Source: a phage
DNA length: 64,000 nt
Reading direction: 5' to 3' (one strand)
NCBI GenBank assembly: GCA_026066175.1
Contig: GCA_026066175.1_4721.1
Each line of letters starts with the position of its first letter. Positions within the stretch are counted from its first letter, which is position 1. Positions 13,787 to 26,356 of the stretch are shown here, one piece after another. The position numbers and the translations under genes were made by a program. A model generated the notes under the pieces. The model was not told the DNA's origin, did no database searches, and was given only the letters and a program-made list of their open reading frames with translations.

Positions 13787-14203
13787 TTACTGTCCTAAGA
13801 AATTGCGGTTGAATAAAGGAATGCCTGAGCCACTAAAGATACGGGTGGTGGAATGTCCTTGATGTTCGGTTGATTCGTAATACTCGATAGGCCGTGATAC
13901 GGGTTTAGGGAGACGATCTAATGCTCGCAACACACCGAGCTTGATCAAATTGCTTTCGAACGGGTAGGGTTGTATCGTTAGCGAACAGAACACTCTCGTT
14001 CTATGCAGATGAATAAGCCGTTGTTGGAGCTTCGATAACCGTTTGTATTTAATCAGGAAACCGATAACATGGCTCTCTGGATGATCGTGGTGGTAGCGTG
14101 CGTTATCAAAGTAAGCGTGCTCTCCTCTTGCAATGAGATACTTTATTGCTTGCATGAATGAATAGCGCCGCAATTCACCGTCGGCTAACATCACACGAAT
14201 CAT
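13787..14203 (-). CDS. Hypothetical protein
   Basis: 138-aa ORF. Confidence 0.4.
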   Translation of the reverse strand: MIRVMLADGELRRYSFMQAIKYLIARGEHAYFDNARYHHDHPESHVIGFLIKYKRLSKLQQRLIHLHRTRVFCSLTIQPYPFESNLIKLGVLRALDRLPKPVSRPIEYYESTEHQGHSTTRIFSGSGIPLFNRNFLGQ

Positions 14204-14610
14204 GGCTTCGCATCCATGACAGGTCCGAACATCCAGAACGCAAGCTGCTGATACACTTGCTCAACGACAGCGGCTTCGGTTTGTTCGTTCATCACTCTCC
14301 CTTTTGTTTGTCTGATTCCAGGTGGTATATCGCCAGGATGGACATAACTTGTCGGAAATTGCCAGAGCAGACATTTACCTAACGTGGGTAAATAAACTTC
14401 GTCGAACTGGAAGGCTTTTGGATTCCAATGAAGCAACTGGTCCGATTCGACGTTCAGCGCTTTCTTACGTTTGCTTGGTGGGTTACCAAAATACTGAACG
14501 ATTTCCGACGCCAGAATCTGTTCAACAAAACGTTTTGCTTCTGCGTCATCGATGGGTGGTAAACGATGCGACAGATTCATCCTTCGCTGCTCTGTGTCGA
14601 TTCTCCGCAT
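14200..14610 (-). CDS. Hypothetical protein
   Basis: 136-aa ORF; ATGA overlap with the downstream gene. Confidence 0.4.
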   Translation of the reverse strand: MRRIDTEQRRMNLSHRLPPIDDAEAKRFVEQILASEIVQYFGNPPSKRKKALNVESDQLLHWNPKAFQFDEVYLPTLGKCLLWQFPTSYVHPGDIPPGIRQTKGRVMNEQTEAAVVEQVYQQLAFWMFGPVMDAKP

Positions 14611-14803
14611 GTTTTTTTACCAACTCACGAGCATCGAGCTTACCGTTGTGTCCAACCTGTCGATGTAATATCTGTCCCTGGAACAAAACGCAAAGTTCTT
14701 GAGGCGCGGTACTTTCCATACGTCCGTAAGCAACGATCACCGAGCGCCGACGGTCGATAACCTCGCGGATGAACCGCGGCTCAGTAATACTCACCACTAT
14801 CAT
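14546..14803 (-). CDS. Hypothetical small protein (uncertain)
   Basis: 85-aa ORF filling the gap 14611-14847, overlapping the neighbour in a different frame. Confidence 0.25.
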   Translation of the reverse strand: MIVVSITEPRFIREVIDRRRSVIVAYGRMESTAPQELCVLFQGQILHRQVGHNGKLDARELVKKHAENRHRAAKDESVASFTTHR

Positions 14804-14847: not shown

Positions 14848-15573
14848 TTAAGACGTTGCCATCTTATATTCCAGAGATTTCTTCGATAGACCATGAATAA
14901 TACCTTCTGGGGTTAACAGTAGACAATCTGGATTCTGTGTTTTGGAACGGTCGTCATGGCTGTTCAATGAAAACAGCAACGCAGAAATCCCCTTTGTTCT
15001 ATTTAACGTTGCAGCAATAACGTCGTATTGCCTTAACGCTTCTGACACGGTACGATGCGGAACCACACGCGACTGCTTAAAGCTGGCTAACCGCCACGTC
15101 TCGAACAGGCAACGCAGTTTAAACACATCCGTCGGAACAGCATTGGCCCCCTCTTCGATAACCTTAACACGATCAGCCTCAGGATATCCGACGGCAACAG
15201 CTCCAAAGTGACGCACGCCATCATGGAAAGCATCGACGGACGTTTCCGCATACTTACACACGGTACCAGAAACCACCATGACCTTCGCTAACCCACGGTA
15301 ATTGATGGTTAACGGAATACGGAATACACGGAACGCATGTTCTGGTGTTAATGCGGTATCATTGACCTTTGTTGCAGTCAGTTTACCGCGTTCATAACGC
15401 GCCTCGAACGTAAGCCCATCGTAAACAGGATTGATAACAACGCCCCCAGGGGAGGCGTTAGCGTTGAGATGGGTGTTAAGCCAATCCGATACTTCCTGTT
15501 TGGTGGTCACGATTAACATAAAACGGTCCTCCATTTCTGTTCCTTTATTGTTGAACGGTTTCTTCCAAACCAT
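14848..15573 (-). CDS. Hypothetical protein
   Basis: 241-aa ORF; the true start may be an internal Met. Confidence 0.45.
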   Translation of the reverse strand: MVWKKPFNNKGTEMEDRFMLIVTTKQEVSDWLNTHLNANASPGGVVINPVYDGLTFEARYERGKLTATKVNDTALTPEHAFRVFRIPLTINYRGLAKVMVVSGTVCKYAETSVDAFHDGVRHFGAVAVGYPEADRVKVIEEGANAVPTDVFKLRCLFETWRLASFKQSRVVPHRTVSEALRQYDVIAATLNRTKGISALLFSLNSHDDRSKTQNPDCLLLTPEGIIHGLSKKSLEYKMATS

Positions 15574-16195
15574 CTTTCTGTTTTGTTAATTCTGATTGCT
15601 TGCGATACACCGTCCACGAGTCGTATAACCCGGTAAACGTCAAATGACGGGCATTTAAGTTCACGGTGAATTCCGTCACGTTGACGAAATCCGAACGAAG
15701 CATCCGATGAAAGTTATCATCTCCGGTACAGCCTCCGTTTCCTTCGCCCTGATAAATCAGAAGCTGATGCGGTTGAATCCGCGTTGCAACCAATGTGGCT
15801 TGTGGTTCGTTGTAAGGCGGCCACGACAATAAAATGACATCGTATTGCGAAAGGTCGACGTTCGTGTAGTCAGCCTGCTGAATGTCCTCAATAAACGGAT
15901 GGGGATGTATTGTCGTATCGTAAGCGGTAACGTCCTCAACACCAAGTTTACGCAGTACGTGAGTCAGGTAACCTGTCCCACAACCCAGGTCAGCAACACG
16001 CCGTCCGTAACAGATGTTCGCTAACTGAAGCGCGGTTTCCATGGTTAACAGCGACCATCCAACGTGTTGGGTGTATTCTTCACGTGTGTCCCATTGTTGT
16101 TGAAATGACATCGGTTCGATGATACCGGCAAGCCGTGGATAGGGCAACGGCATCTTGTTTTCACCCTGAGTGAGTAACGCAATAACATCGTTCAT
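15545..16195 (-). CDS. SAM-dependent methyltransferase (class I)
   Basis: Motif I VADLGCGTGYLT; substrate not determinable from sequence. Confidence 0.6.
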   Translation of the reverse strand: MNDVIALLTQGENKMPLPYPRLAGIIEPMSFQQQWDTREEYTQHVGWSLLTMETALQLANICYGRRVADLGCGTGYLTHVLRKLGVEDVTAYDTTIHPHPFIEDIQQADYTNVDLSQYDVILLSWPPYNEPQATLVATRIQPHQLLIYQGEGNGGCTGDDNFHRMLRSDFVNVTEFTVNLNARHLTFTGLYDSWTVYRKQSELTKQKDGLEETVQQ

Positions 16196-16244: not shown

Positions 16245-16688
16245 TCATTCATTATCAATAACCCTGAGATTCGGTGCACCAAGTTCTCTTTTGGCTATCG
16301 CACTAAGTAACCGTTCTTCAACGAAACAGGTTTCTTTGCTGCCATCGATTGTACGCATATCACCTCGGAAATTGTTAAGAACCATGAACAGTTCGCAACC
16401 TTCGATCGGGATAGCGATATCGTAATTAACCTGGGATGCTGTGAAGCGAATACCTACCACGATACCAGGAACGTAGATGACGGGTGCGGTCGGTATCTGG
16501 GCGGCTTCATTATCTGGATCTGCCTCCATTATAAGCTCAACCCGGTCACCAATATGGAATTGCGAGTACCCGTTCACTTCGCGTAAATAAGCAGATTGCT
16601 GCATATTGACAAACTTCTCTTTGCTTGAGTCGCAAGGTAAATCCAGGACTTCTTCCAACGTTAAGAATTTGCGATCGAACCAACTCAT
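16245..16688 (-). CDS. Hypothetical protein
   Basis: 147-aa ORF. Confidence 0.45.
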   Translation of the reverse strand: MSWFDRKFLTLEEVLDLPCDSSKEKFVNMQQSAYLREVNGYSQFHIGDRVELIMEADPDNEAAQIPTAPVIYVPGIVVGIRFTASQVNYDIAIPIEGCELFMVLNNFRGDMRTIDGSKETCFVEERLLSAIAKRELGAPNLRVIDNE

Positions 16689-16689
16689 C

Positions 16690-17229
16690 TTAAGCTCCTT
16701 TATGTTTTGTTTTGATTGATGATGTTAACCAGGATGATCTTACCGTAAAGCCTTCGGATTCATAGAACGCTTGGGCTTCAGCGTTATCGGCACGAACATC
16801 CAAACCGATGGCGTGCCCACCGCAATGGTACGCGACGTTACGGGCTTCGTTCATCAAGGCATGACCAATTCCGCGTCCGCGATACTCTTGCTTTACGATA
16901 ATCGACGTCACGTCATGAATACCCATATGGCTCTCGGTGCTCACTTCCAGGAGTCCTACCGGTATTGAGGCAATAGCATCGATCATGACAATCAACATCG
17001 CGCCAGCTGGGAGACGGTCTTCCAATTCCAGGGAAGCGTACTCGTCTTTTAAACCAGGGATACGTTCTGGTAGGAAGGTATCTATCCAGGCTTCTGATTC
17101 CGCATCATCGAGAATGCGATACAGTTCACGAATCCGCTGTTTATGTGGATAGAGGTGTGGGTCAGCCGCCGTTGAAGCGATAATGCAATGAAACGGTCGT
17201 TCATTGATCACCAATGATTTAATACTCAC
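16690..17229 (-). CDS. GNAT-family N-acetyltransferase
   Basis: Acetyl-CoA-binding motif A: VKQEYRGRGIGHALMNEA. Confidence 0.6.
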   Translation of the reverse strand: MSIKSLVINERPFHCIIASTAADPHLYPHKQRIRELYRILDDAESEAWIDTFLPERIPGLKDEYASLELEDRLPAGAMLIVMIDAIASIPVGLLEVSTESHMGIHDVTSIIVKQEYRGRGIGHALMNEARNVAYHCGGHAIGLDVRADNAEAQAFYESEGFTVRSSWLTSSIKTKHKGA

Positions 17230-17735
17230 GCTAAGTTTTCCTCGTTTTCTAAGAGTCGATTACGATGACGTTTATACATTTGATGTAACGCTGTGATCTG
17301 ATAAAATTTCTTATAGCGTCTTTCAATCCGCTTCTGCACCTCTTTCCATGGGAGTTTATCGTATTGACGATAACGATGGATTTCATTTAACATGCGGAGT
17401 CGATCAGGGTCTGTGTTCTGTATCGTCCTGAGTTTGATACGCTGGTAACCGCGTTGTAACCCCGATTCAGAATACGTCACACCGAATTCATCTTGAATTA
17501 AGGTGATGATCTCCCGCCAACGTCGTTTCTCACCGTCGCGCAAATGCACGACCCGCGATAAAATATCGTTACGATTACGATGACTCAGCTTGATATTAAG
17601 CATTGAAGCGATCGCGCTTATCCCTCTCTGACTCCGTCCTAACGCTTCACCGATCTCCTTTGATGTCATGACGCCAGCGTTTCGGCGTATGAATGCGATT
17701 TCGGTTGTTGTATATTCACGGTTACCCACGATCAT
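17226..17735 (-). CDS. HTH/Myb-like DNA-binding protein, paralog 1 of 6
   Basis: YTTTEIAFIRRNAGVMTSKEIGEALGRSQRGI plus C-terminal W..I..I..EFG..Y shared with the five neighbours. Confidence 0.5.
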   Translation of the reverse strand: MIVGNREYTTTEIAFIRRNAGVMTSKEIGEALGRSQRGISAIASMLNIKLSHRNRNDILSRVVHLRDGEKRRWREIITLIQDEFGVTYSESGLQRGYQRIKLRTIQNTDPDRLRMLNEIHRYRQYDKLPWKEVQKRIERRYKKFYQITALHQMYKRHRNRLLENEENLA

Positions 17736-18190
17736 ATCACCTGATAATAATGAAGACGTTGACGTAACGTAATCGGTTTATATTGCTTTCCAAATTCCTT
17801 GTTAATAATAGAAACCGTTTCCTTCCACGTGGGTCCTTGTTCACGTAGTGTTTTCGCCCGCGTTAGCAGCCGCGTGCGTTCTGTGGTGTCATAGCGACGC
17901 AGTCCTAAACGTCTTGCTGTTGCCGCTACGCTGTCACGCGAACGGTTGAGTTGTAGAGCGATCTCTTTAAACGACAACGTTCTTATGTTTTCACTGATAA
18001 AAGCGATCTCATCTTTGGTGTACGGTTTGTTCGTACGAACGGAGGGGAATAACGCAAGTTTATTCTTTATAGCGCTTCTTGAACGATTTAGCTGTTTAGC
18101 GATTATCGCGGTTGATGGACGTGGTATCTGTTCAGCAAGACGCTCCAGGCGCTCAAACTCTTCTTTCGTCCAACGGCGCTTCTGTCCCAT
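17732..18190 (-). CDS. HTH/Myb-like DNA-binding protein, paralog 2 of 6
   Basis: WTKEEFERL...IAKQLNRSRSAI; YTKDEIAFI...KEIALQLNRSRDSV; WKETVSIINKEFGKQY. Confidence 0.5.
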   Translation of the reverse strand: MGQKRRWTKEEFERLERLAEQIPRPSTAIIAKQLNRSRSAIKNKLALFPSVRTNKPYTKDEIAFISENIRTLSFKEIALQLNRSRDSVAATARRLGLRRYDTTERTRLLTRAKTLREQGPTWKETVSIINKEFGKQYKPITLRQRLHYYQVI

Positions 18191-18662
18191 TGGCTACACT
18201 CTCCTTCTTCTTGTTAAGAAACCATCGTTGATAAACAGCATGCTTACTGTAATGTGTACCGAACACCGTGTTCACATGGTCCGCGATCACGCTCCAACGA
18301 TAGCCCTGACGGTGTTGTTCGTCAATGTAGTCCAACAATGTCTGACGGAACGTCTCTGATGTTCGATAGATTTTATTCCGCATAGCAAACAATCGAACGG
18401 TGTCGTACGGTCGATTAAGATCAATAGCGATTTCCTTTAACGTTTTGTGTTTGACGTTATCCCTTAAGTAGTTCAGCTCTCGAGTTGTAAACGGTATGCG
18501 TGTTTGTCGTCGCTGTAACGTCAATCGTCGGATACGGCTTTCGACACTATAGCGAGAGCGTTTTAAACGTTCCGCAATCTCTCTTATTGGCGTTGTGGTT
18601 TCTGTATACAGAAAAACTAACAACGTTATTTCATCGGGTTTCCAGGGCCTAATTTCCTTCAT
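18153..18662 (-). CDS. HTH/Myb-like DNA-binding protein, paralog 3 of 6
   Basis: WKPDEITLL...EIAERLKRSRYSV; FTTRELNYL...KEIAIDLNRPYDTV; WSVIADHVNTVFGTHY. Confidence 0.5.
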   Translation of the reverse strand: MKEIRPWKPDEITLLVFLYTETTTPIREIAERLKRSRYSVESRIRRLTLQRRQTRIPFTTRELNYLRDNVKHKTLKEIAIDLNRPYDTVRLFAMRNKIYRTSETFRQTLLDYIDEQHRQGYRWSVIADHVNTVFGTHYSKHAVYQRWFLNKKKESVANGTEAPLDERRV

Positions 18663-19107
18663 TGATTACTTCCCCTTCTTCCTTATTTCTCTTCTCGTGA
18701 TACCACCAACGCTGACGAACCGCTTGTTCACTCCAATCAGAGTTGAAATGTTCGTTCGCTGTGTTGGTAATTTGGTGCCAACTGTCGCCTTCTTTTAACC
18801 TTTTGTTCACAAAAGCTAAGAATGCATGCGTGTATTCTCCACAAGAGCGTCGTATGCCATGTCGGTACGCAATAGCTCTTAAACTGTTTGGATCGCGACC
18901 TAAATCTCTCGCAATCGCTTTATACGTTTTTCGAGCAATGTTTGCTCTGATATACGCTATTTCATGTGATTTGAAATATTGATACGCGCGCCGTCTTGGA
19001 ACACCCAGTCGATGTAGTCGTGCTTGAACGGCCCCGTACGTCGTCTCCATGATTTCCGCGATTTCATGAATCTTTAATCGCGGTTGCCGAAAATACAGTT
19101 TCAACAA
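18649..19107 (-). CDS. HTH/Myb-like DNA-binding protein, paralog 4 of 6
   Basis: IHEIAEIMETTYGAV; FKSHEIAYIRANIARKTYKAIARDLGRDPNSL; WHQITNTANEHF. Confidence 0.45.
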   Translation of the reverse strand: MLKLYFRQPRLKIHEIAEIMETTYGAVQARLHRLGVPRRRAYQYFKSHEIAYIRANIARKTYKAIARDLGRDPNSLRAIAYRHGIRRSCGEYTHAFLAFVNKRLKEGDSWHQITNTANEHFNSDWSEQAVRQRWWYHEKRNKEEGEVINEGN

Positions 19108-19151
19108 CTGCTTATCGGACTTATGATTCCATCGTCATATCGTTGGTCTCA

Positions 19152-19634
19152 TTAATAAATAACCCTGTTCCTACGCGTCTTTAAAACATGTGTGTAATAG
19201 AGGCTATGTACGCCGCTTAAGGTGTAATGTGTGCCAAACTCCTGATTGATGATGTTCTTTATCTTCTCCCATGTTAGTGCGTCCTTTCGAAGATCCTCTA
19301 CGCGATGATAAATCATTTCTCGACGGGATGCTTTGCAGGCTACAATACCGTAACGGTAACATAGTTTGTGGATTGAGTTCACGCTACGATTAAACGCCCG
19401 TGCGGCTTCGGCTAGGCTATGTGTTTTCACGTATTGTGCGATACGTGCCCGTTCGTCGAAGCTGCTGGTATGATGGCGTTGCTTTAGTTTCCACCGTTTT
19501 CGATTACGATTGAGGCGTCCTTGGACCGAACCTTCCGTCCGACCCAAGCGCGACGCAATTTCCAACATCGGGACGCCATCTTGATACAGCGTGATCAACA
19601 CAGCATCCTCTTCAGGTGTCCAGTCCTTGACCAT
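19152..19634 (-). CDS. HTH/Myb-like DNA-binding protein, paralog 5 of 6
   Basis: WTPEEDAVLITLYQDGVPMLEIASRLGRTEGSVQGRLNRNRKRW is a clear Myb/SANT-like repeat; WEKIKNIINQEFGTHY. Confidence 0.55.
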   Translation of the reverse strand: MVKDWTPEEDAVLITLYQDGVPMLEIASRLGRTEGSVQGRLNRNRKRWKLKQRHHTSSFDERARIAQYVKTHSLAEAARAFNRSVNSIHKLCYRYGIVACKASRREMIYHRVEDLRKDALTWEKIKNIINQEFGTHYTLSGVHSLYYTHVLKTRRNRVIY

Positions 19635-19644
19635 CGTACCTACC

Positions 19645-20103
19645 TCATCTTGCGTGATAACTTAAAAGACGCCCAAGCGAGGCGGGCGTATAGCGTGCTT
19701 TGAATTCTTTGTTGATTTGCTTGGTGAGGTCCTTCCACGCGAGCTTATCTCGAAGTTGATTAACCCGATTGCAAACCGCTAATCGTTTTAGTTTGTTAAT
19801 CATGATACCGTTACGATGACAATAACAACGTACCGAATGAACGCTCCGTCCGAGTTCTTCTGCGATCTCCGCTAACGTATGCGTTTCAGCAAGCTGGACT
19901 AGACGTCGTTTCTCCTCTTGACTGTAACTTGGCATTCGTGTAGGCAAAGAACGTTCTTTACGTCGCAAACGTAAGTAACGCGCTCGTACACTCTTCGGTG
20001 AACGGTTCATGCTTTGCGCGACTTCTGCATAACTCGCATTGGGGAGTGTTTTAAGAATCCGCAGCAACGTTGCATCTTCTGCTGGTGTCCAATGTCTACC
20101 CAT
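19645..20103 (-). CDS. HTH/Myb-like DNA-binding protein, paralog 6 of 6
   Basis: WTPAEDATLLRIL...EVAQSMNRSPKSVRARYLRL; LAEIAEELGRSVHSV; WKDLTKQINKEF. Confidence 0.55.
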   Translation of the reverse strand: MGRHWTPAEDATLLRILKTLPNASYAEVAQSMNRSPKSVRARYLRLRRKERSLPTRMPSYSQEEKRRLVQLAETHTLAEIAEELGRSVHSVRCYCHRNGIMINKLKRLAVCNRVNQLRDKLAWKDLTKQINKEFKARYTPASLGRLLSYHAR

Positions 20104-20107
20104 GTTC

Positions 20108-23230
<3,123 letters not shown>

Positions 23231-23889: not shown

Positions 23890-24154
23890 TTACACCAGAC
23901 GGCACAACCACACCGGTACGAATCACTGCCGCGATTTCCTGCATCGCTTTGCCTTTCAACGCAAAGGTTTCGTATACAACAGCACGTCGGGTTGTTAGGC
24001 CCACAAACTTACAGACGACCATGTTGTCTTCTGAAAGATACGCGGTTTCCAACTCACCGTGCAGCAGTTCTTTTTCTCGAGTATCAATGCCGATTAAGGC
24101 AATTTGATAGGCAGATAGTTTCCAATAACGCATATTCATCCTACTTGTAAACAA
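23840..24154 (-). CDS. Hypothetical protein
   Basis: 104-aa ORF. Confidence 0.3.
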   Translation of the reverse strand: MFTSRMNMRYWKLSAYQIALIGIDTREKELLHGELETAYLSEDNMVVCKFVGLTTRRAVVYETFALKGKAMQEIAAVIRTGVVVPSGVSDDLDEVLHGTRKTAC

Positions 24155-24966
24155 TCAAATATTCCGAAACCGAGTTCCTCGTTTCTACTTTAGCCGAGAT
24201 CATTCTCCTTACCGTAATCGGATGAAATTCTGATGCGGTACTATAGATTTCTTCAACCAATGGGCACGTACTATTACTGATTACGGTAGGGATACCCGAC
24301 TTACGAAGTTTGTCGGCCGTTTCTGCAAGGTATCGGTGGTCATCCAACGTGAATCCTTCCTTGGTATAACCTGTAAAAGAGGCTGTGGTCGAAATAGGGA
24401 TATACGGCGGGTCGCAATATACGACATCGCCCGATCTCACGTTTTCGAGGTGTCGTCTAAACCCACCACTTACAATTTCCACCCCCCCCCCCCTCGACGG
24501 TGGTACGAAGATGGTTAGCAGCCGTCCGTAATTCGTATTTCGGACAATAGATCGTCTTGTATCGTCCGTGCGCAACGTTAAATAATCCGTTTTGGTTATA
24601 GCGACACAAACCATTGAATCCGTAACGGTTCAGGTATATGAAACACACCGCACGTTCCCAAGGATCGTTGCTTTGATTAAAACGATCGCGTACCTCGTAA
24701 TAACGTTTAACGTCTTCCGGTGAAATTTGGAATAAACGTTCAACATCCTCAATGAATTGTTTCGGACATGTCACCAACGCTCTCCAAACATTAAGGATAT
24801 CCTCGTTAGCATCCCCAATGGAATAACTAGGATATTTCAGTGAAAGCGTCACCGCGCCAGAGCCGACGAACGGTTCAACCAAGCGTTTTCCATCCGGCAA
24901 CACATTCCTAATTTCAGGGATAAGTTTGGTTTTGTTACCCAACCATTTAAGAAACGTTTTATTCAT
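24141..24966 (-). pseudogene. dam: Dam-family N6-adenine DNA methyltransferase, split by a frameshift in a 12-nt homopolymer
   Basis: N-terminal ORF (24457-24966) has FLKWLGNK...LVEPFVGSGAV; C-terminal ORF (24141-24614) has VVYCDPPY; the two frames meet in the run of 12 C on the plus strand (12 G in coding sense) at 24482-24493; one fewer G gives ...RTTVEGGGVEIVSGGF... in frame. Confidence 0.75.
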
Positions 24967-25387
24967 CGAGAGACCCCTGCGACCCGATGAACTCGATGCT
25001 TATTTCCGTTCGAATCGGGTTGATAAGAATTTCACGTACACGCTCCAACCATTCGGGATTATCCGTCAGAACAACATCGGCGTATTTCAACGGTGTATGT
25101 TCGAACGTATCGGTTGTGCTTACCATCAATACACCGTTAAGTTCTACGTACAGCGGTATACGTCCACGAATACGTTGCCATGTGTCATGGGTCAGATCTT
25201 CGCATTCAAGCGCAATCGCGATGATGGGGCTGATGTTAAGTGGGAAGCTAGGATGCAACGTGCGGCGAAATGTCACCCAGTTCTCAACATGAGAAACCGC
25301 AAGTTCTATCGAACAACATTTTGGTGGTATCTGAATATGAATTTGTTGGACAAGTTTATTGGGGTTTTGTACAGACTTATCGGCCAT
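24959..25387 (-). CDS. Hypothetical protein
   Basis: 142-aa ORF. Confidence 0.45.
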   Translation of the reverse strand: MADKSVQNPNKLVQQIHIQIPPKCCSIELAVSHVENWVTFRRTLHPSFPLNISPIIAIALECEDLTHDTWQRIRGRIPLYVELNGVLMVSTTDTFEHTPLKYADVVLTDNPEWLERVREILINPIRTEISIEFIGSQGSLDE

Positions 25388-26356
25388 TTACTTTTTCCTG
25401 AAAATCAGCGTCGGTAATCCATTTCTTACAGCGTAGTATAACACCAATAAGTTAATCTTACCGGCCGATACCGTCAGGGTCTTCTTACGACGCGGTAAAC
25501 TGATCGGGATCTCGGTGGCGATTTCGCTGACGTTATGGAACGATTGAGCGTATCGACGCAGTGACGCTTCACCGAGGATCGGTAAGAAGAGATCTTCAGT
25601 AAAGGTACTATCGCAAATATACTGGATGTTAATAAGCGGGGGATTAAACTCATCCAGGAAATCGAAGAGTTCATCAACGATTTTCAACAGGTTCGCGGGT
25701 AATGGAACTTCACGAACATATTTCTGATTCCCTTTCTCAAGTAGAATCATCGTCATGCAGTAATCCTGGATGATATCAACAACGTCTTGCTGGGTGGTTG
25801 CCGCATTTAACAACGTGCAGGCTTCCGACCAGGAGAGTTGTCGGCGTGTCTCGTAGTAAGACGGTTGTAATACCGCGTAGAACTCACGGAGTAAACGACC
25901 AACATCACCACGGGTACGTATCGCTAACTCAACAGCATAACCTGTCTTTTCAGCATCGCTCAGAATGTCGTTACGCCACAAAACGTAATCGTCAAGCATG
26001 CTGCGGTATTTCTCGGTCCAATCAGATGAAAGATAATAACCGATTTCTTCAATAAGGACATTTACCTTACCGCCCAATGCCTCGCGACGAGGATCGACCG
26101 AAGGCTCGAATGTAAACGGTAATTTAGGTATGCCGAAACCATCAGCCACGATAACGTCGCTAAGGAAGGTCCCTAATGGCGACCAAGGACCCAGAAGATC
26201 CTGATACAGCATGGGGTGCATGCTATTAATCAAGGTGAATCGATCATCAAAGAAACGAATGCTTGGGTGCTCGGCGAGCGCAAGTTCCGCGTAGACTTTC
26301 TCAAGCTGTATTTTTATTGCGTCCCGTGTTTTATCGATAGGGCCTATAGAAGCCAT
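25388..26356 (-). CDS. Hypothetical protein
   Basis: 322-aa ORF. Confidence 0.5.
   Translation of the reverse strand: MASIGPIDKTRDAIKIQLEKVYAELALAEHPSIRFFDDRFTLINSMHPMLYQDLLGPWSPLGTFLSDVIVADGFGIPKLPFTFEPSVDPRREALGGKVNVLIEEIGYYLSSDWTEKYRSMLDDYVLWRNDILSDAEKTGYAVELAIRTRGDVGRLLREFYAVLQPSYYETRRQLSWSEACTLLNAATTQQDVVDIIQDYCMTMILLEKGNQKYVREVPLPANLLKIVDELFDFLDEFNPPLINIQYICDSTFTEDLFLPILGEASLRRYAQSFHNVSEIATEIPISLPRRKKTLTVSAGKINLLVLYYAVRNGLPTLIFRKK

What the first reader, a model, noticed from the sequence alone, without database searches (positions are those of the whole stretch)
17226..20103. Tandem array of six paralogous HTH/Myb-like genes, flanked by a GNAT and a SAM methyltransferase
Six consecutive minus-strand genes of 152-169 aa share a three-part architecture: a Myb/SANT-like repeat (clearest in WTPEEDAVLITLYQDGVPMLEIASRLGRTEGSVQGRLNRNRKRW), a second HTH (YT.DEIAFI......KEIA..LNRS..SV....R.G) and a conserved C-terminal W..I..IN.EFG..Y block. 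The copies are diverged at the protein level and packed tightly, with 4-38 nt overlaps, which points to an old, maintained expansion rather than a recent duplication. Six putative DNA-binding regulators in one operon is unusual; they could be a diversified set of transcription or host-takeover factors, or target different host nucleic acids. I do not recognise this array from any characterised phage.
Basis: seen in the sequence. Interest (0 to 1): 0.75.

Follow-up and report, generated by a model that had tools for sequence, protein, structure and literature searches.

The report
Six-gene Myb-like DNA-binding array
A relative of the nucleus-forming E. coli jumbo phage Goslar carries six neighbouring, anciently duplicated genes for small basic proteins built from three helix-turn-helix DNA-binding domains, distantly related to phage T5's D5 regulator; the array is real and under selection but belongs to a known kind of phage protein, and its function is untested.

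Summary
Six adjacent minus-strand ORFs (17226-20103) are paralogs (22-35% identity). They are the only matches to their own profile in the 64 kb window. Structure prediction gives three tri-helical HTH domains per protein. R1 and R2 are copies of one Myb/sigma-region-4-like unit. R3 is an HTH fold with no sequence relatives outside this phage lineage. G1 is the exception: it has R2-R3-R3' and no R1.

The window is a Goslar-like chimallivirus, and the array equals Goslar gp114-gp119, so it does occur in a characterised phage, though nothing is published on it. All six fall in PHROG 323 ("transcriptional regulator, D5-like"), and T5 D5 matches the array profile directly.

Five Goslar-like lineages give six clean orthogroups in fixed order, with dN/dS of 0.06-0.24. 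There is also turnover: one lineage has five copies, Goslar gp119 lacks R3, and window G4 carries a nonsense codon.

About 19,700 database representatives share the R1-R2 unit, mostly as long multi-repeat phage proteins. One unrelated phage contig also clusters several family genes.

Best reading: a subfunctionalised set of DNA-binding regulators acting on phage DNA. DNA binding is well supported; the target and role are inferred. I rate it a new member of a known kind, of moderate interest.

The parts
17226..17735 (-). G1, 169 aa, pI 10.5. Module order is R2-R3-R3' (no R1, duplicated third module). Ortholog of Goslar gp114 (87-88% aa identity). Overlaps the GNAT start by 4 nt.
   Evidence: (two R3 hits, iE 4.6e-17 and 1.2e-4)
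17732..18190 (-). G2, 152 aa, pI 11.0. Modules R1-R2-R3. Ortholog of Goslar gp115 (48% aa identity).
   Evidence: Myb_DNA-bind_6, 24.0 bits against cut-off 22.9; phrog_323, 2.8e-20
18153..18662 (-). G3, 169 aa, pI 10.2. Modules R1-R2-R3. Ortholog of Goslar gp116 (39% aa identity).
   Evidence: (phrog_323, 3.4e-18); R3 of this protein modelled at pLDDT 93.7
18649..19107 (-). G4 as an open frame from TTG, 152 aa, pI 10.0. R1 is N-terminally truncated, followed by R2-R3. Ortholog of Goslar gp117 (48-51% aa identity).
   Evidence: (Sigma70_r4_2, 27.0 bits against 25.7)
19108..19152 (-). Remnant of the ancestral G4 5' end. The ATG at 19150-19152 overlaps the G5 stop codon. An in-frame TGA at 19135-19137 corresponds to CGA in the close relative L011 and in Goslar, where the protein is an intact 167 aa. 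This is a nonsense mutation or a sequencing error.
19152..19634 (-). G5, 160 aa, pI 10.1. Modules R1-R2-R3. Ortholog of Goslar gp118 (71-72% aa identity). Absent from lineage L009.
   Evidence: Sigma70_r4_2 33.3 bits, HTH_23 31.6 bits, both above cut-off; AF2 model
19645..20103 (-). G6, 152 aa, pI 10.7. Modules R1-R2-R3, with the best Myb match of the six. Ortholog of Goslar gp119 (58% aa identity), which lacks R3.
   Evidence: PF00249, 45.1 bits against 24.4; phrog_323, 1.5e-23

Best explanation
The six genes encode a subfunctionalised family of small, very basic, monomeric DNA-binding proteins. Each is a string of three independent tri-helical helix-turn-helix domains: R1 and R2 of the Myb / sigma-region-4 / T5-D5 type, and a lineage-specific R3.

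By analogy with c-Myb R2R3, Cbp1/Cbp2 and the Tc3 and paired domains, the third helix of each domain would sit in the major groove. The three domains, joined by short basic linkers, would then read an asymmetric site of roughly 12-18 bp. The paralogs carry different recognition helices, and each orthogroup keeps its own. The six would therefore recognise different sites.

The genes are co-transcribed with the NAD-dependent ligase, the GNAT and the putative methyltransferase in a DNA-metabolism block. They most likely act on the phage's own DNA to regulate gene expression and/or replication, as T5 D5 is annotated to do. That would require import into the phage nucleus.

Shown here: paralogy, fold, basic charge, family membership, conservation and purifying selection. 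Inferred: DNA binding (strongly), sequence specificity, the phage genome as target, and a regulatory outcome.
For: - Fold: the AF2 model of G5 has pLDDT 83.7 with nine helices in three bundles, and a low pTM of 0.39, which fits beads on a string. R3 modelled alone has pLDDT 93.7. Its best structural matches are HTH DNA-binding domains (Mu transposase I-beta, G20c small terminase N-domain, DMAP1 SANT, SETMAR, GcrA), with TMq 0.66-0.78 for the first four and 0.60 for GcrA, although the Foldseek E-values (1.9 or worse) are not significant for so small a domain.
- Solved relatives: the array profile hits Cbp2 (2LVS) at 1e-9 and c-Myb R1R2R3 (1H88) at 6e-8.
- Pfam: Myb_DNA-binding, Myb_DNA-bind_6, Sigma70_r4_2 and HTH_23 score above cut-off for G2, G4, G5 and G6.
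- Internal repeat: R1 and R2 are homologous repeats (hhalign 96.5%, E=8e-10).
- Charge: pI is 10.0-11.0 for all six.
- Family: all six are in phrog_323. T5 D5 is phrog_323 at 1e-71. It aligns to R1-R2 (hhalign 90%) and hits the array HMM at 7.8e-10. The T5 record annotates D5 as a DNA-binding protein required for DNA replication and late transcription.
- Specificity pattern: recognition helices are 55-66% identical between orthologs but 18-32% between paralogs, the largest ortholog/paralog ratio of any helix class.
- Selection: dN/dS is 0.055-0.235 for Goslar vs L003 and 0.063-0.241 for window vs L011, similar to neighbouring genes.
- Evolutionary stability: six clean orthogroups in fixed order across five lineages.
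- Operon context: there is no room for internal promoters, five of the six starts have SD-like sequences (the G4 TTG does not), and the ligase is directly upstream.
Against: - No binding site, expression timing or localisation is known. No shared intergenic motif was found in the window.
- The relationship to T5 D5 covers only the HTH repeats, not D5's N-terminal ~130 residues.
- D5-type proteins may be abundant, low-specificity dsDNA binders. The D5 homolog is a major component of phiR2-01 virion preparations (PMC8624392).
- The array is confined to Goslar-like phages. It is absent next to the ligase in Moabite and was not found by tblastn in other chimalliviruses. It is therefore not part of the core chimallivirus expression machinery.
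- G2, G3, G4 and G6 are 39-58% identical to their Goslar orthologs, while 20 neighbouring genes are 62-90% identical. This is unexpected for factors locked to conserved cis-sites, although mosaic recombination is evident nearby.
- The family tolerates loss: five copies in L009, no R3 in gp119, and a nonsense codon in window G4.
Confidence: 0.45

Rival explanations
1. The six are architectural, low-specificity dsDNA-coating proteins (nucleoid- or histone-like). They would bind phage DNA cooperatively inside the phage nucleus or early vesicle and organise or protect it, rather than acting as site-specific regulators.
For: - Very high pI and beads-on-a-string HTH domains.
- The wider family is dominated by proteins with 4-11 matched R1-R2 stretches, which suggests long contiguous DNA coverage.
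- The T5 D5 homolog is among the most abundant proteins in phiR2-01 virion preparations (PMC8624392).
- From my own knowledge of the older T5 literature, not checked here: D5 binds dsDNA cooperatively.
- The rapid sequence drift of G2-G4 and G6 is easier to tolerate without cognate sites.
Against: - Six distinct orthogroups, each with its own conserved recognition helices, are kept in fixed order. That is not expected for redundant coating proteins.
- gp114-119 are not mentioned in the Goslar virion structure paper.
Confidence: 0.2
2. The six are host-directed factors. They would bind the E. coli chromosome, plasmids, or defence or CRISPR loci early in infection, to shut off or redirect host functions or to blunt defences.
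For: - Lineage-restricted, fast-evolving, copy-number-variable families are typical of host-interaction genes.
- The closest solved relative by sequence is a CRISPR-repeat-binding protein, Cbp2.
- They would not need nuclear import.
Against: - dN/dS is well below 1 in both close comparisons, with no sign of positive selection at gene level.
- PADLOC gave nothing above noise.
- The Cbp2 similarity is a generic di-HTH resemblance.
Confidence: 0.12
3. The six are stand-alone DNA-targeting modules derived from, or working with, selfish nucleases such as homing endonucleases. They would be domesticated or orphaned DNA-binding domains rather than regulators.
For: - Secondary PHROG hits go to the HTH regions of HNH endonuclease families (phrog_1891 and phrog_8446, E 1e-4 to 1e-5).
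- The same repeat is fused to a Vsr-type 'DNA mismatch endonuclease' in Acinetobacter phage ME3 and to a helicase in P0003.
- A patchily present ORF, the gp120 homolog, abuts the array.
Against: - No nuclease domain is present in or beside the array.
- Order is conserved and selection is purifying across five lineages, unlike mobile HEGs.
Confidence: 0.08
4. The six are sigma-like promoter-specificity subunits for the phage's sigma-less multisubunit RNA polymerases. Each paralog would direct a different promoter class.
For: - Sigma70_r4_2 scores above the Pfam cut-off for G4, G5 and G6.
- Group 1 jumbo phages encode no sigma factor, and the RNAP flap partner is unknown (PMC7824862).
Against: - There is no sigma region 2 or 3.
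- The array is absent from other chimalliviruses that use the same RNAPs.
- From my own knowledge, not checked here: phiKZ nvRNAP initiates in vitro without added factors.
- The region-4 hits are generic HTH similarity that equally matches Myb and HTH_23.
Confidence: 0.05

Closest known systems
Phage T5 D5 protein / PHROG 323 'transcriptional regulator, D5-like'
   Same: All six match phrog_323 (E 1e-10 to 1e-23), and T5 D5 is a core member of it (1e-71). D5 residues 134-236 align to R1-R2 (hhalign 90%), and D5 hits the array HMM at 7.8e-10. Both are basic tandem-HTH proteins. Both are encoded in a DNA-metabolism block just downstream of an NAD-dependent ligase.
   Different: The six cover only profile positions ~93-240 of 319 and lack D5's N-terminal region. 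They carry the lineage-specific R3 module. There are six paralogs rather than one gene. T5 uses host RNAP in the cytoplasm, whereas Goslar uses its own RNAPs inside a protein-bounded nucleus.
Eukaryotic c-Myb R1R2R3 / SANT-Myb domain (PF00249, PF13921)
   Same: Both have three tandem ~50-aa tri-helical repeats. R1 carries the W-T-x-E-E-D start. R3 has a G-x-x-W-x-x-I ... Q-R-W pattern. G6 scores 45.1 bits on PF00249, and the array profile hits 1H88 at 6e-8.
   Different: The regular three-tryptophan core is not kept: R1 keeps only the first Trp, and R2 usually has Y/F there. Four of the six fall below the PF00249 cut-off. R1 and R2 score equally well on sigma region 4 and HTH_23.
Archaeal CRISPR-repeat-binding proteins Cbp1/Cbp2 (PDB 2LVS)
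   Same: This is the best solved-structure match for R1-R2, both by sequence profile (1e-9) and by Foldseek (rank 1). Both are two HTH domains joined by a basic linker and both bind DNA as a monomer.
   Different: Cbp1/Cbp2 are archaeal cellular proteins with a different biological context, and they have no R3. The similarity is at the level of a generic di-HTH unit.
Expansion of Myb-type (RsfA-like) HTH transcription factors in Bacillus jumbo phage G (Iyer et al. 2021, PMC7824862)
   Same: Both are lineage-specific multiplications of Myb-type HTH proteins in a jumbo phage, interpreted as phage-encoded transcription factors.
   Different: Phage G belongs to a different jumbo-phage group (3.2, non-nucleus-forming) and a different Myb subfamily. 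No direct homology was tested here.
Multi-repeat HTH proteins of uncultivated phages (e.g. P0014, P0053, P0008, P0003)
   Same: They share the R1-R2 unit: 19,683 representatives at E<1e-3 and 188 at E<1e-30. They sit in phage contexts. In contig L005, four genes and a 45-aa fragment of the family cluster within ~5 kb.
   Different: They carry 4-16 units in one polypeptide of 300-900 aa, sometimes fused to a helicase or nuclease. None of the non-Goslar hits extends into R3.

Membership tests
PHROG 323 (D5-like transcriptional regulator) | Significant match to the family profile | tested here: met
   All six match, at E 8e-10 (G1) to 1.5e-23 (G6). T5 D5 is the reference member at 1.2e-71.
PHROG 323 (D5-like transcriptional regulator) | Full-length architecture of T5 D5 (N-terminal region plus C-terminal HTH repeats) | tested here: not met
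   Matches cover only profile positions ~93-240 of 319. hhalign aligns only D5 residues 134-236.
PHROG 323 (D5-like transcriptional regulator) | dsDNA binding and a requirement for late transcription or replication | not testable with these tools
   This is known for T5 D5 only from the record annotation. There are no data for Goslar gp114-119.
Myb/SANT domain (PF00249 / PF13921) | Score at or above the Pfam gathering threshold | tested here: inconclusive
   G6 passes PF00249 (45.1 against 24.4) and PF13921 (41.4 against 22.9). G2 passes PF13921 only (24.0 against 22.9). G1, G3, G4 and G5 are below cut-off.
Myb/SANT domain (PF00249 / PF13921) | Tri-helical HTH fold in tandem repeats | tested here: met
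   The AF2 model has three 3-helix bundles. c-Myb is among the top fold and sequence matches. R3 matches the DMAP1 SANT domain at TMq 0.66.
Myb/SANT domain (PF00249 / PF13921) | Three regularly spaced tryptophans or aromatics per repeat | tested here: not met
   The alignments show only the first Trp kept in R1, none conserved in R2, and the second Trp (W122) plus a partial third in R3.
Sigma-70 family | Region 4 HTH | tested here: inconclusive
   Sigma70_r4_2 scores above cut-off for G4 (27.0), G5 (33.3) and G6 (34.8). The same residues match Myb and HTH_23 equally well.
Sigma-70 family | Region 2 (core binding, -10 recognition) | tested here: not met
   There is no Sigma70_r2 hit in Pfam. 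NCBIfam sigma models score 15-24 bits against cut-offs of 43-324.
Cbp1/Cbp2 CRISPR-repeat-binding proteins | Tandem HTH domains with a basic linker | tested here: met
   2LVS scores E=1e-9 over profile positions 10-99 and ranks first in Foldseek.
Cbp1/Cbp2 CRISPR-repeat-binding proteins | Specific binding to CRISPR repeat DNA | not testable with these tools
Homing-endonuclease DNA-binding modules | Linked nuclease domain (HNH, GIY-YIG, Vsr) | tested here: not met
   No nuclease domain was found in any of the six or in the adjacent ORFs. Only the HTH portions of the HNH PHROGs match.

The most novel reading that the evidence does not exclude
The six proteins are imported into the Goslar phage nucleus. 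There they act as a combinatorial set of site-specific factors that partition the genome into temporal or functional transcription and replication classes. This would make them the first dedicated transcription-factor repertoire described for a nucleus-forming phage, possibly working with its sigma-less RNA polymerases.
Probability: 0.25. Interest if true: 0.6.

Novelty: new member of a known kind. Interest (0 to 1): 0.35.

Why it matters
Regulation of gene expression in chimalliviruses is essentially uncharted. A 2025 review of nucleus-forming phages does not use the terms "transcription factor" or "DNA-binding" at all, and these phages encode no sigma factors.

A conserved, selected set of six DNA-binding proteins in Goslar, the E. 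coli model chimallivirus, offers a tractable way to ask three things:
- whether such phages use specific transcription or replication factors;
- which DNA-binding proteins are admitted to the phage nucleus;
- how a tandem-HTH scaffold diversifies its specificity.

The work also draws attention to a very large family of multi-repeat HTH proteins in uncultivated phages, about 19,700 representatives at 50% clustering. The only studied member I am aware of is T5 D5.

The limits are that the domain type is common, the array is restricted to one genus, and no function has been shown.

Tried and rejected
- Recent duplication or DNA repeats: the repeat finder found only short matches at chance level across 16500-21000.
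- Internal promoters or terminators: the sigma-70 and terminator scans were at background level and are in any case uninformative for a phage with its own RNAPs.
- Shared intergenic motifs as candidate binding sites: no 8-mer occurs in five or more intergenic regions, and only weak 6/7-mers appeared. Several 'intergenic' gaps are in fact disrupted genes.
- Array in other chimalliviruses: tblastn with G6 and G2 found only Goslar among nucleus-forming phages. The ligase neighbourhood of Serratia phage Moabite has no array, and its DNA-binding-like gp102 is unrelated (hhalign 0.2%).
- R3 relatives: the profile search found one 69-aa fragment only, and nothing meaningful in the PDB.
- NCBIfam and PADLOC: nothing near cut-off.
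- PDB hit 8VD6 'CAP repeat': this is a de novo designed protein and is irrelevant.
- Pseudogene or decaying-duplicate reading: rejected, because dN/dS is 0.06-0.24 in two independent lineage pairs.
- Small-terminase reading: only weak Terminase_5 hits on the HTH (E 0.0015-0.03) and no oligomerisation domain.
- Literature on Goslar gp114-119: none found.

Full report
**1. What is there**

The window is a relative of Escherichia phage vB_EcoM_Goslar, genus Goslarvirus, a nucleus-forming jumbo phage. Megablast of window 1-25000 covers 70% of the query at 81% identity and hits only Goslar.

The ORF listing confirms six consecutive minus-strand ORFs at exactly the reported coordinates:

| Gene | Coordinates | Length |
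|---|---|---|
| G1 | 17226-17735 | 169 aa |
| G2 | 17732-18190 | 152 aa |
| G3 | 18153-18662 | 169 aa |
| G4 | 18649-19107 | 152 aa (TTG start) |
| G5 | 19152-19634 | 160 aa |
| G6 | 19645-20103 | 152 aa |

The junctions are:
- G1/G2: overlap of 4 nt
- G2/G3: overlap of 38 nt
- G3/G4: overlap of 14 nt
- G4/G5: gap of 44 nt
- G5/G6: gap of 10 nt

Five of the six starts are preceded by SD-like sequences; the G4 TTG start is not.

Downstream, G1 overlaps a GNAT acetyltransferase by 4 nt (16690-17229; PF00583 E=5e-14). After that come a 147-aa ORF without family hits and a putative class I methyltransferase (15545-16195). The methyltransferase is below Pfam cut-offs here but is annotated as such in Goslar. 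Upstream lie a 244-aa ORF with no hits (20108-20842) and an NAD-dependent DNA ligase (20802-22877).

The block from about 24150 down to about 14850 is one uninterrupted run of minus-strand genes with no gap larger than 49 nt. It is therefore probably one transcription unit.

**2. Are they paralogs beyond chance?**

Yes.
- Pairwise BLASTP (dbsize 1e6) gives 1e-21 for G5/G6, 7e-21 for G3/G4 and around 1e-9 to 1e-13 for most other pairs. G1 links through G2 at 2e-9.
- An HMM built from G2-G6 and their orthologs, without G1, retrieves exactly these six ORFs from all six-frame ORFs of the window. G1 scores 3.8e-21.
- No nucleotide-level repeats remain, and identities are 22-35%. The duplications are therefore old.

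**3. Anatomy**

AlphaFold2 on a 17-sequence alignment gives G5 a mean pLDDT of 83.7. The model has nine helices in three 3-helix bundles at residues 7-44, 59-95 and 102-158. The pTM is low (0.39), as expected for independently tumbling domains.

R1 and R2 are repeats of one unit, with consensus W/Y-T-x-x-E-...-EIA-x-x-L-x-R-S/T-x-x-S-V/I-x-x-R (hhalign 96.5%, E=8e-10).

R3 has the pattern L-R-x-x-G-x-x-W-x-x-I-x-x-x-I-N-x-E-F-G-x-x-Y-...-Q-R-W/Y. It is not detectably homologous to R1 or R2 by profile. Modelled alone, it folds with pLDDT 93.7 into a tri-helical domain. Its best structural matches are HTH DNA-binding domains: Mu transposase I-beta, phage G20c small-terminase N-domain, DMAP1 SANT and SETMAR at TMq 0.66-0.78, and GcrA at 0.60. 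The Foldseek E-values are not significant, as is usual for a 53-residue domain.

G1 is the exception. It lacks R1 and has R2-R3-R3'. An R3 profile built without G1 hits it twice, at 2e-8 and 1.7e-5.

All six proteins are strongly basic, with pI 10.0-11.0.

**4. Family assignment**

Pfam gives overlapping matches to Myb_DNA-binding, Myb_DNA-bind_6, Sigma70_r4_2 and HTH_23. These are above the gathering cut-off for G6, G5, G4 and G2 (G2 on Myb_DNA-bind_6 only) and below it for G1 and G3.

All six fall in PHROG 323, 'transcriptional regulator, D5-like', at E 8e-10 to 1.5e-23, covering profile positions ~93-240 of 319.

The evidence linking the array to phage T5 D5 is as follows:
- D5 itself scores 1.2e-71 on phrog_323.
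- D5 residues 134-236 align to R1-R2 (hhalign 90%).
- D5 hits the array HMM at 7.8e-10.
- The T5 record describes D5 as a DNA-binding protein required for DNA replication and late transcription and involved in early shut-off.
- D5 lies immediately downstream of the T5 NAD-dependent ligase genes, which is the same linkage seen here.

Against solved structures, the array profile best matches the archaeal CRISPR-repeat-binding di-HTH protein Cbp2 (2LVS, 1e-9) and c-Myb R1R2R3 (1H88, 6e-8). Foldseek ranks 2LVS, c-Myb and the Tc3 bipartite DNA-binding domain at the top, though weakly. NCBIfam and PADLOC add nothing.

**5. Distribution and evolution**

Goslar gp114-gp119 are positional orthologs. 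In the order G1 to G6, the amino-acid identities are 88, 48, 39, 51, 72 and 58%. In RefSeq they are annotated as hypothetical proteins, except gp119, which is 'SANT/Myb domain-containing protein'.

Three further Goslar-like contigs carry the array:
- L003, from IMG/VR
- L011/L012, from Logan
- L009/L010, from Logan

An NJ tree of all 29 members gives six clean orthogroups, with G5 paired with G6 and G3 with G4. Gene order is fixed. All duplications therefore predate these lineages.

dN/dS, where dS is unsaturated, is 0.055-0.235 for Goslar vs L003 and 0.063-0.241 for window vs L011. This is in the same range as the neighbouring genes. All six are thus maintained by purifying selection.

There is also turnover:
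- L009 has five copies and no G5.
- Goslar and L003 gp119 lack R3.
- Window G4 has a CGA-to-TGA change at codon 6, which is intact in L011 and Goslar.

Between the window and Goslar, G2, G3, G4 and G6 are 39-58% identical. Twenty neighbouring genes are 62-90% identical. This reflects either faster long-term protein evolution or mosaic exchange, which is visible nearby.

Outside the genus:
- tblastn finds no other chimallivirus.
- The ligase neighbourhood of Serratia phage Moabite has no such array.
- R3 has no relatives elsewhere.

The R1-R2 unit, by contrast, is extremely widespread. There are 19,683 representatives at E<1e-3 and 188 at E<1e-30. The best are 300-900-aa proteins with 4-11 matched R1-R2 stretches, some fused to a helicase. 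They occur in phage contexts, in Listeria and Mammaliicoccus phages annotated 'D5-like', and fused to a Vsr-type nuclease in Acinetobacter phage ME3.

One unrelated metagenomic phage contig, L005, carries four family genes and a 45-aa fragment within ~5 kb. Iyer et al. had already noted an expansion of Myb-type HTH factors in jumbo phage G (PMC7824862). Clustered expansion of this domain type in phages is therefore not unique.

**6. Mechanism**

What is shown: six maintained paralogs, each made of three tri-helical HTH domains, with strongly basic charge, membership of the D5-like family, and co-orientation with DNA-metabolism genes.

What is inferred: each protein binds dsDNA as a monomer. 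The third helix of each domain would sit in the major groove, as in c-Myb R2R3, Cbp2 and the Tc3/paired domains, so that the protein reads an asymmetric site of roughly 12-18 bp.

Recognition helices differ between paralogs (18-32% identity) but are kept within orthogroups (55-66%). This suggests six different specificities.

By analogy with T5 D5, and given the genomic context, the most likely targets are the phage's own DNA and the outcome is control of expression and/or replication. In a chimallivirus this implies import into the phage nucleus.

I put about 0.85 on DNA binding and 0.45 on the full regulatory model. The rivals and their weights are:

| Rival reading | Weight | Main support or reason |
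|---|---|---|
| Architectural coating of DNA | 0.20 | D5 homolog abundant in phiR2-01 virion preparations; multi-repeat relatives |
| Host-directed takeover or anti-defence | 0.12 | Host DNA is largely gone by 60 mpi |
| Orphaned or accessory DNA-targeting modules of selfish nucleases | 0.08 | HTH similarity to nuclease families and fusions |
| Sigma-like specificity subunits | 0.05 | Region-4-type HTH matches |
| Decaying duplicates | rejected | dN/dS |

**7. Novelty and interest**

The array is genuine and unstudied. No paper mentions Goslar gp114-119. A 2025 review of nucleus-forming phages never mentions transcription factors or DNA-binding proteins.

Against that, the domain type, the family (PHROG 323 / T5 D5) and the phenomenon (lineage-specific HTH expansions in phages) are all known. 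The array is already present in a public, characterised genome, and it is confined to one genus.

I therefore rate it a new member of a known kind, with an interest score of 0.35. The most novel surviving reading is a nucleus-resident, combinatorial transcription-factor set for a chimallivirus, at about 0.25 probability.

Noticed in passing
window 20108-20842 (-): A 244-aa ORF between the ligase and the array is the homolog of Goslar gp120 (86% aa identity). It has no Pfam or PHROG hit. It is present in the window and in Goslar but absent from their respective close relatives L011 and L003, and from L009, where the ligase is followed directly by the G6 ortholog. Patchy presence suggests an indel-prone or mobile gene.
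   Followed up: partly
window 19135-19137 (-): There is an in-frame TGA at codon 6 of the ancestral G4 reading frame (CGA in L011 and Goslar). It leaves a TTG-initiated ORF that lacks helix 1 of R1. This could be a real nonsense mutation, readthrough, or a sequencing error.
   Followed up: yes
window 24141-24966 (-): A Dam-like D12-class N6-adenine methyltransferase is split into two overlapping ORFs of 169 aa and 157 aa (the latter with the DPPY motif) at a run of G residues (GGGGG in the protein, poly-G/C in the DNA). The gene is intact (275 aa, PF02086) in L009 and absent from Goslar at this position. The split may be a frameshift or a homopolymer error.
   Followed up: partly
window 14200-14803 (-): Two ORFs (14200-14610 and 14546-14803) both match the single Goslar gene gp109. 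This is another apparent split gene in the window.
   Followed up: no
window 24959-26356 (-) vs L011 795-2189: Two genes are only 65-69% identical to the otherwise ~95%-identical relative L011. This indicates mosaic recombination between Goslar-like lineages close to the array.
   Followed up: no
L005 5126-10461 (ENA ERZ25964943 NODE_12): An unrelated uncultivated phage contig carries four genes of the same R1-R2 HTH family, with 2, 6-7, 2 and 4 units, plus a 45-aa fragment, all within ~5 kb. This is an independent clustered expansion.
   Followed up: partly
L002 (T5) 20365-23078; window 17226-22877: In T5 the D5 gene directly follows the NAD-dependent ligase genes ligA and ligB. In Goslar-like phages the D5-like array directly follows the NAD-dependent ligase. 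This may be a conserved linkage or a coincidence.
   Followed up: no
L001 6141-6647 (Goslar gp114): The annotated start of Goslar gp114 (147 aa, MTSKEIG...) appears too short. The ORF extends upstream to 168 aa and includes helix 1 of R2 (EYTTTEIAFIRRNAG), which is conserved in the window, L003, L009 and L011.
   Followed up: partly
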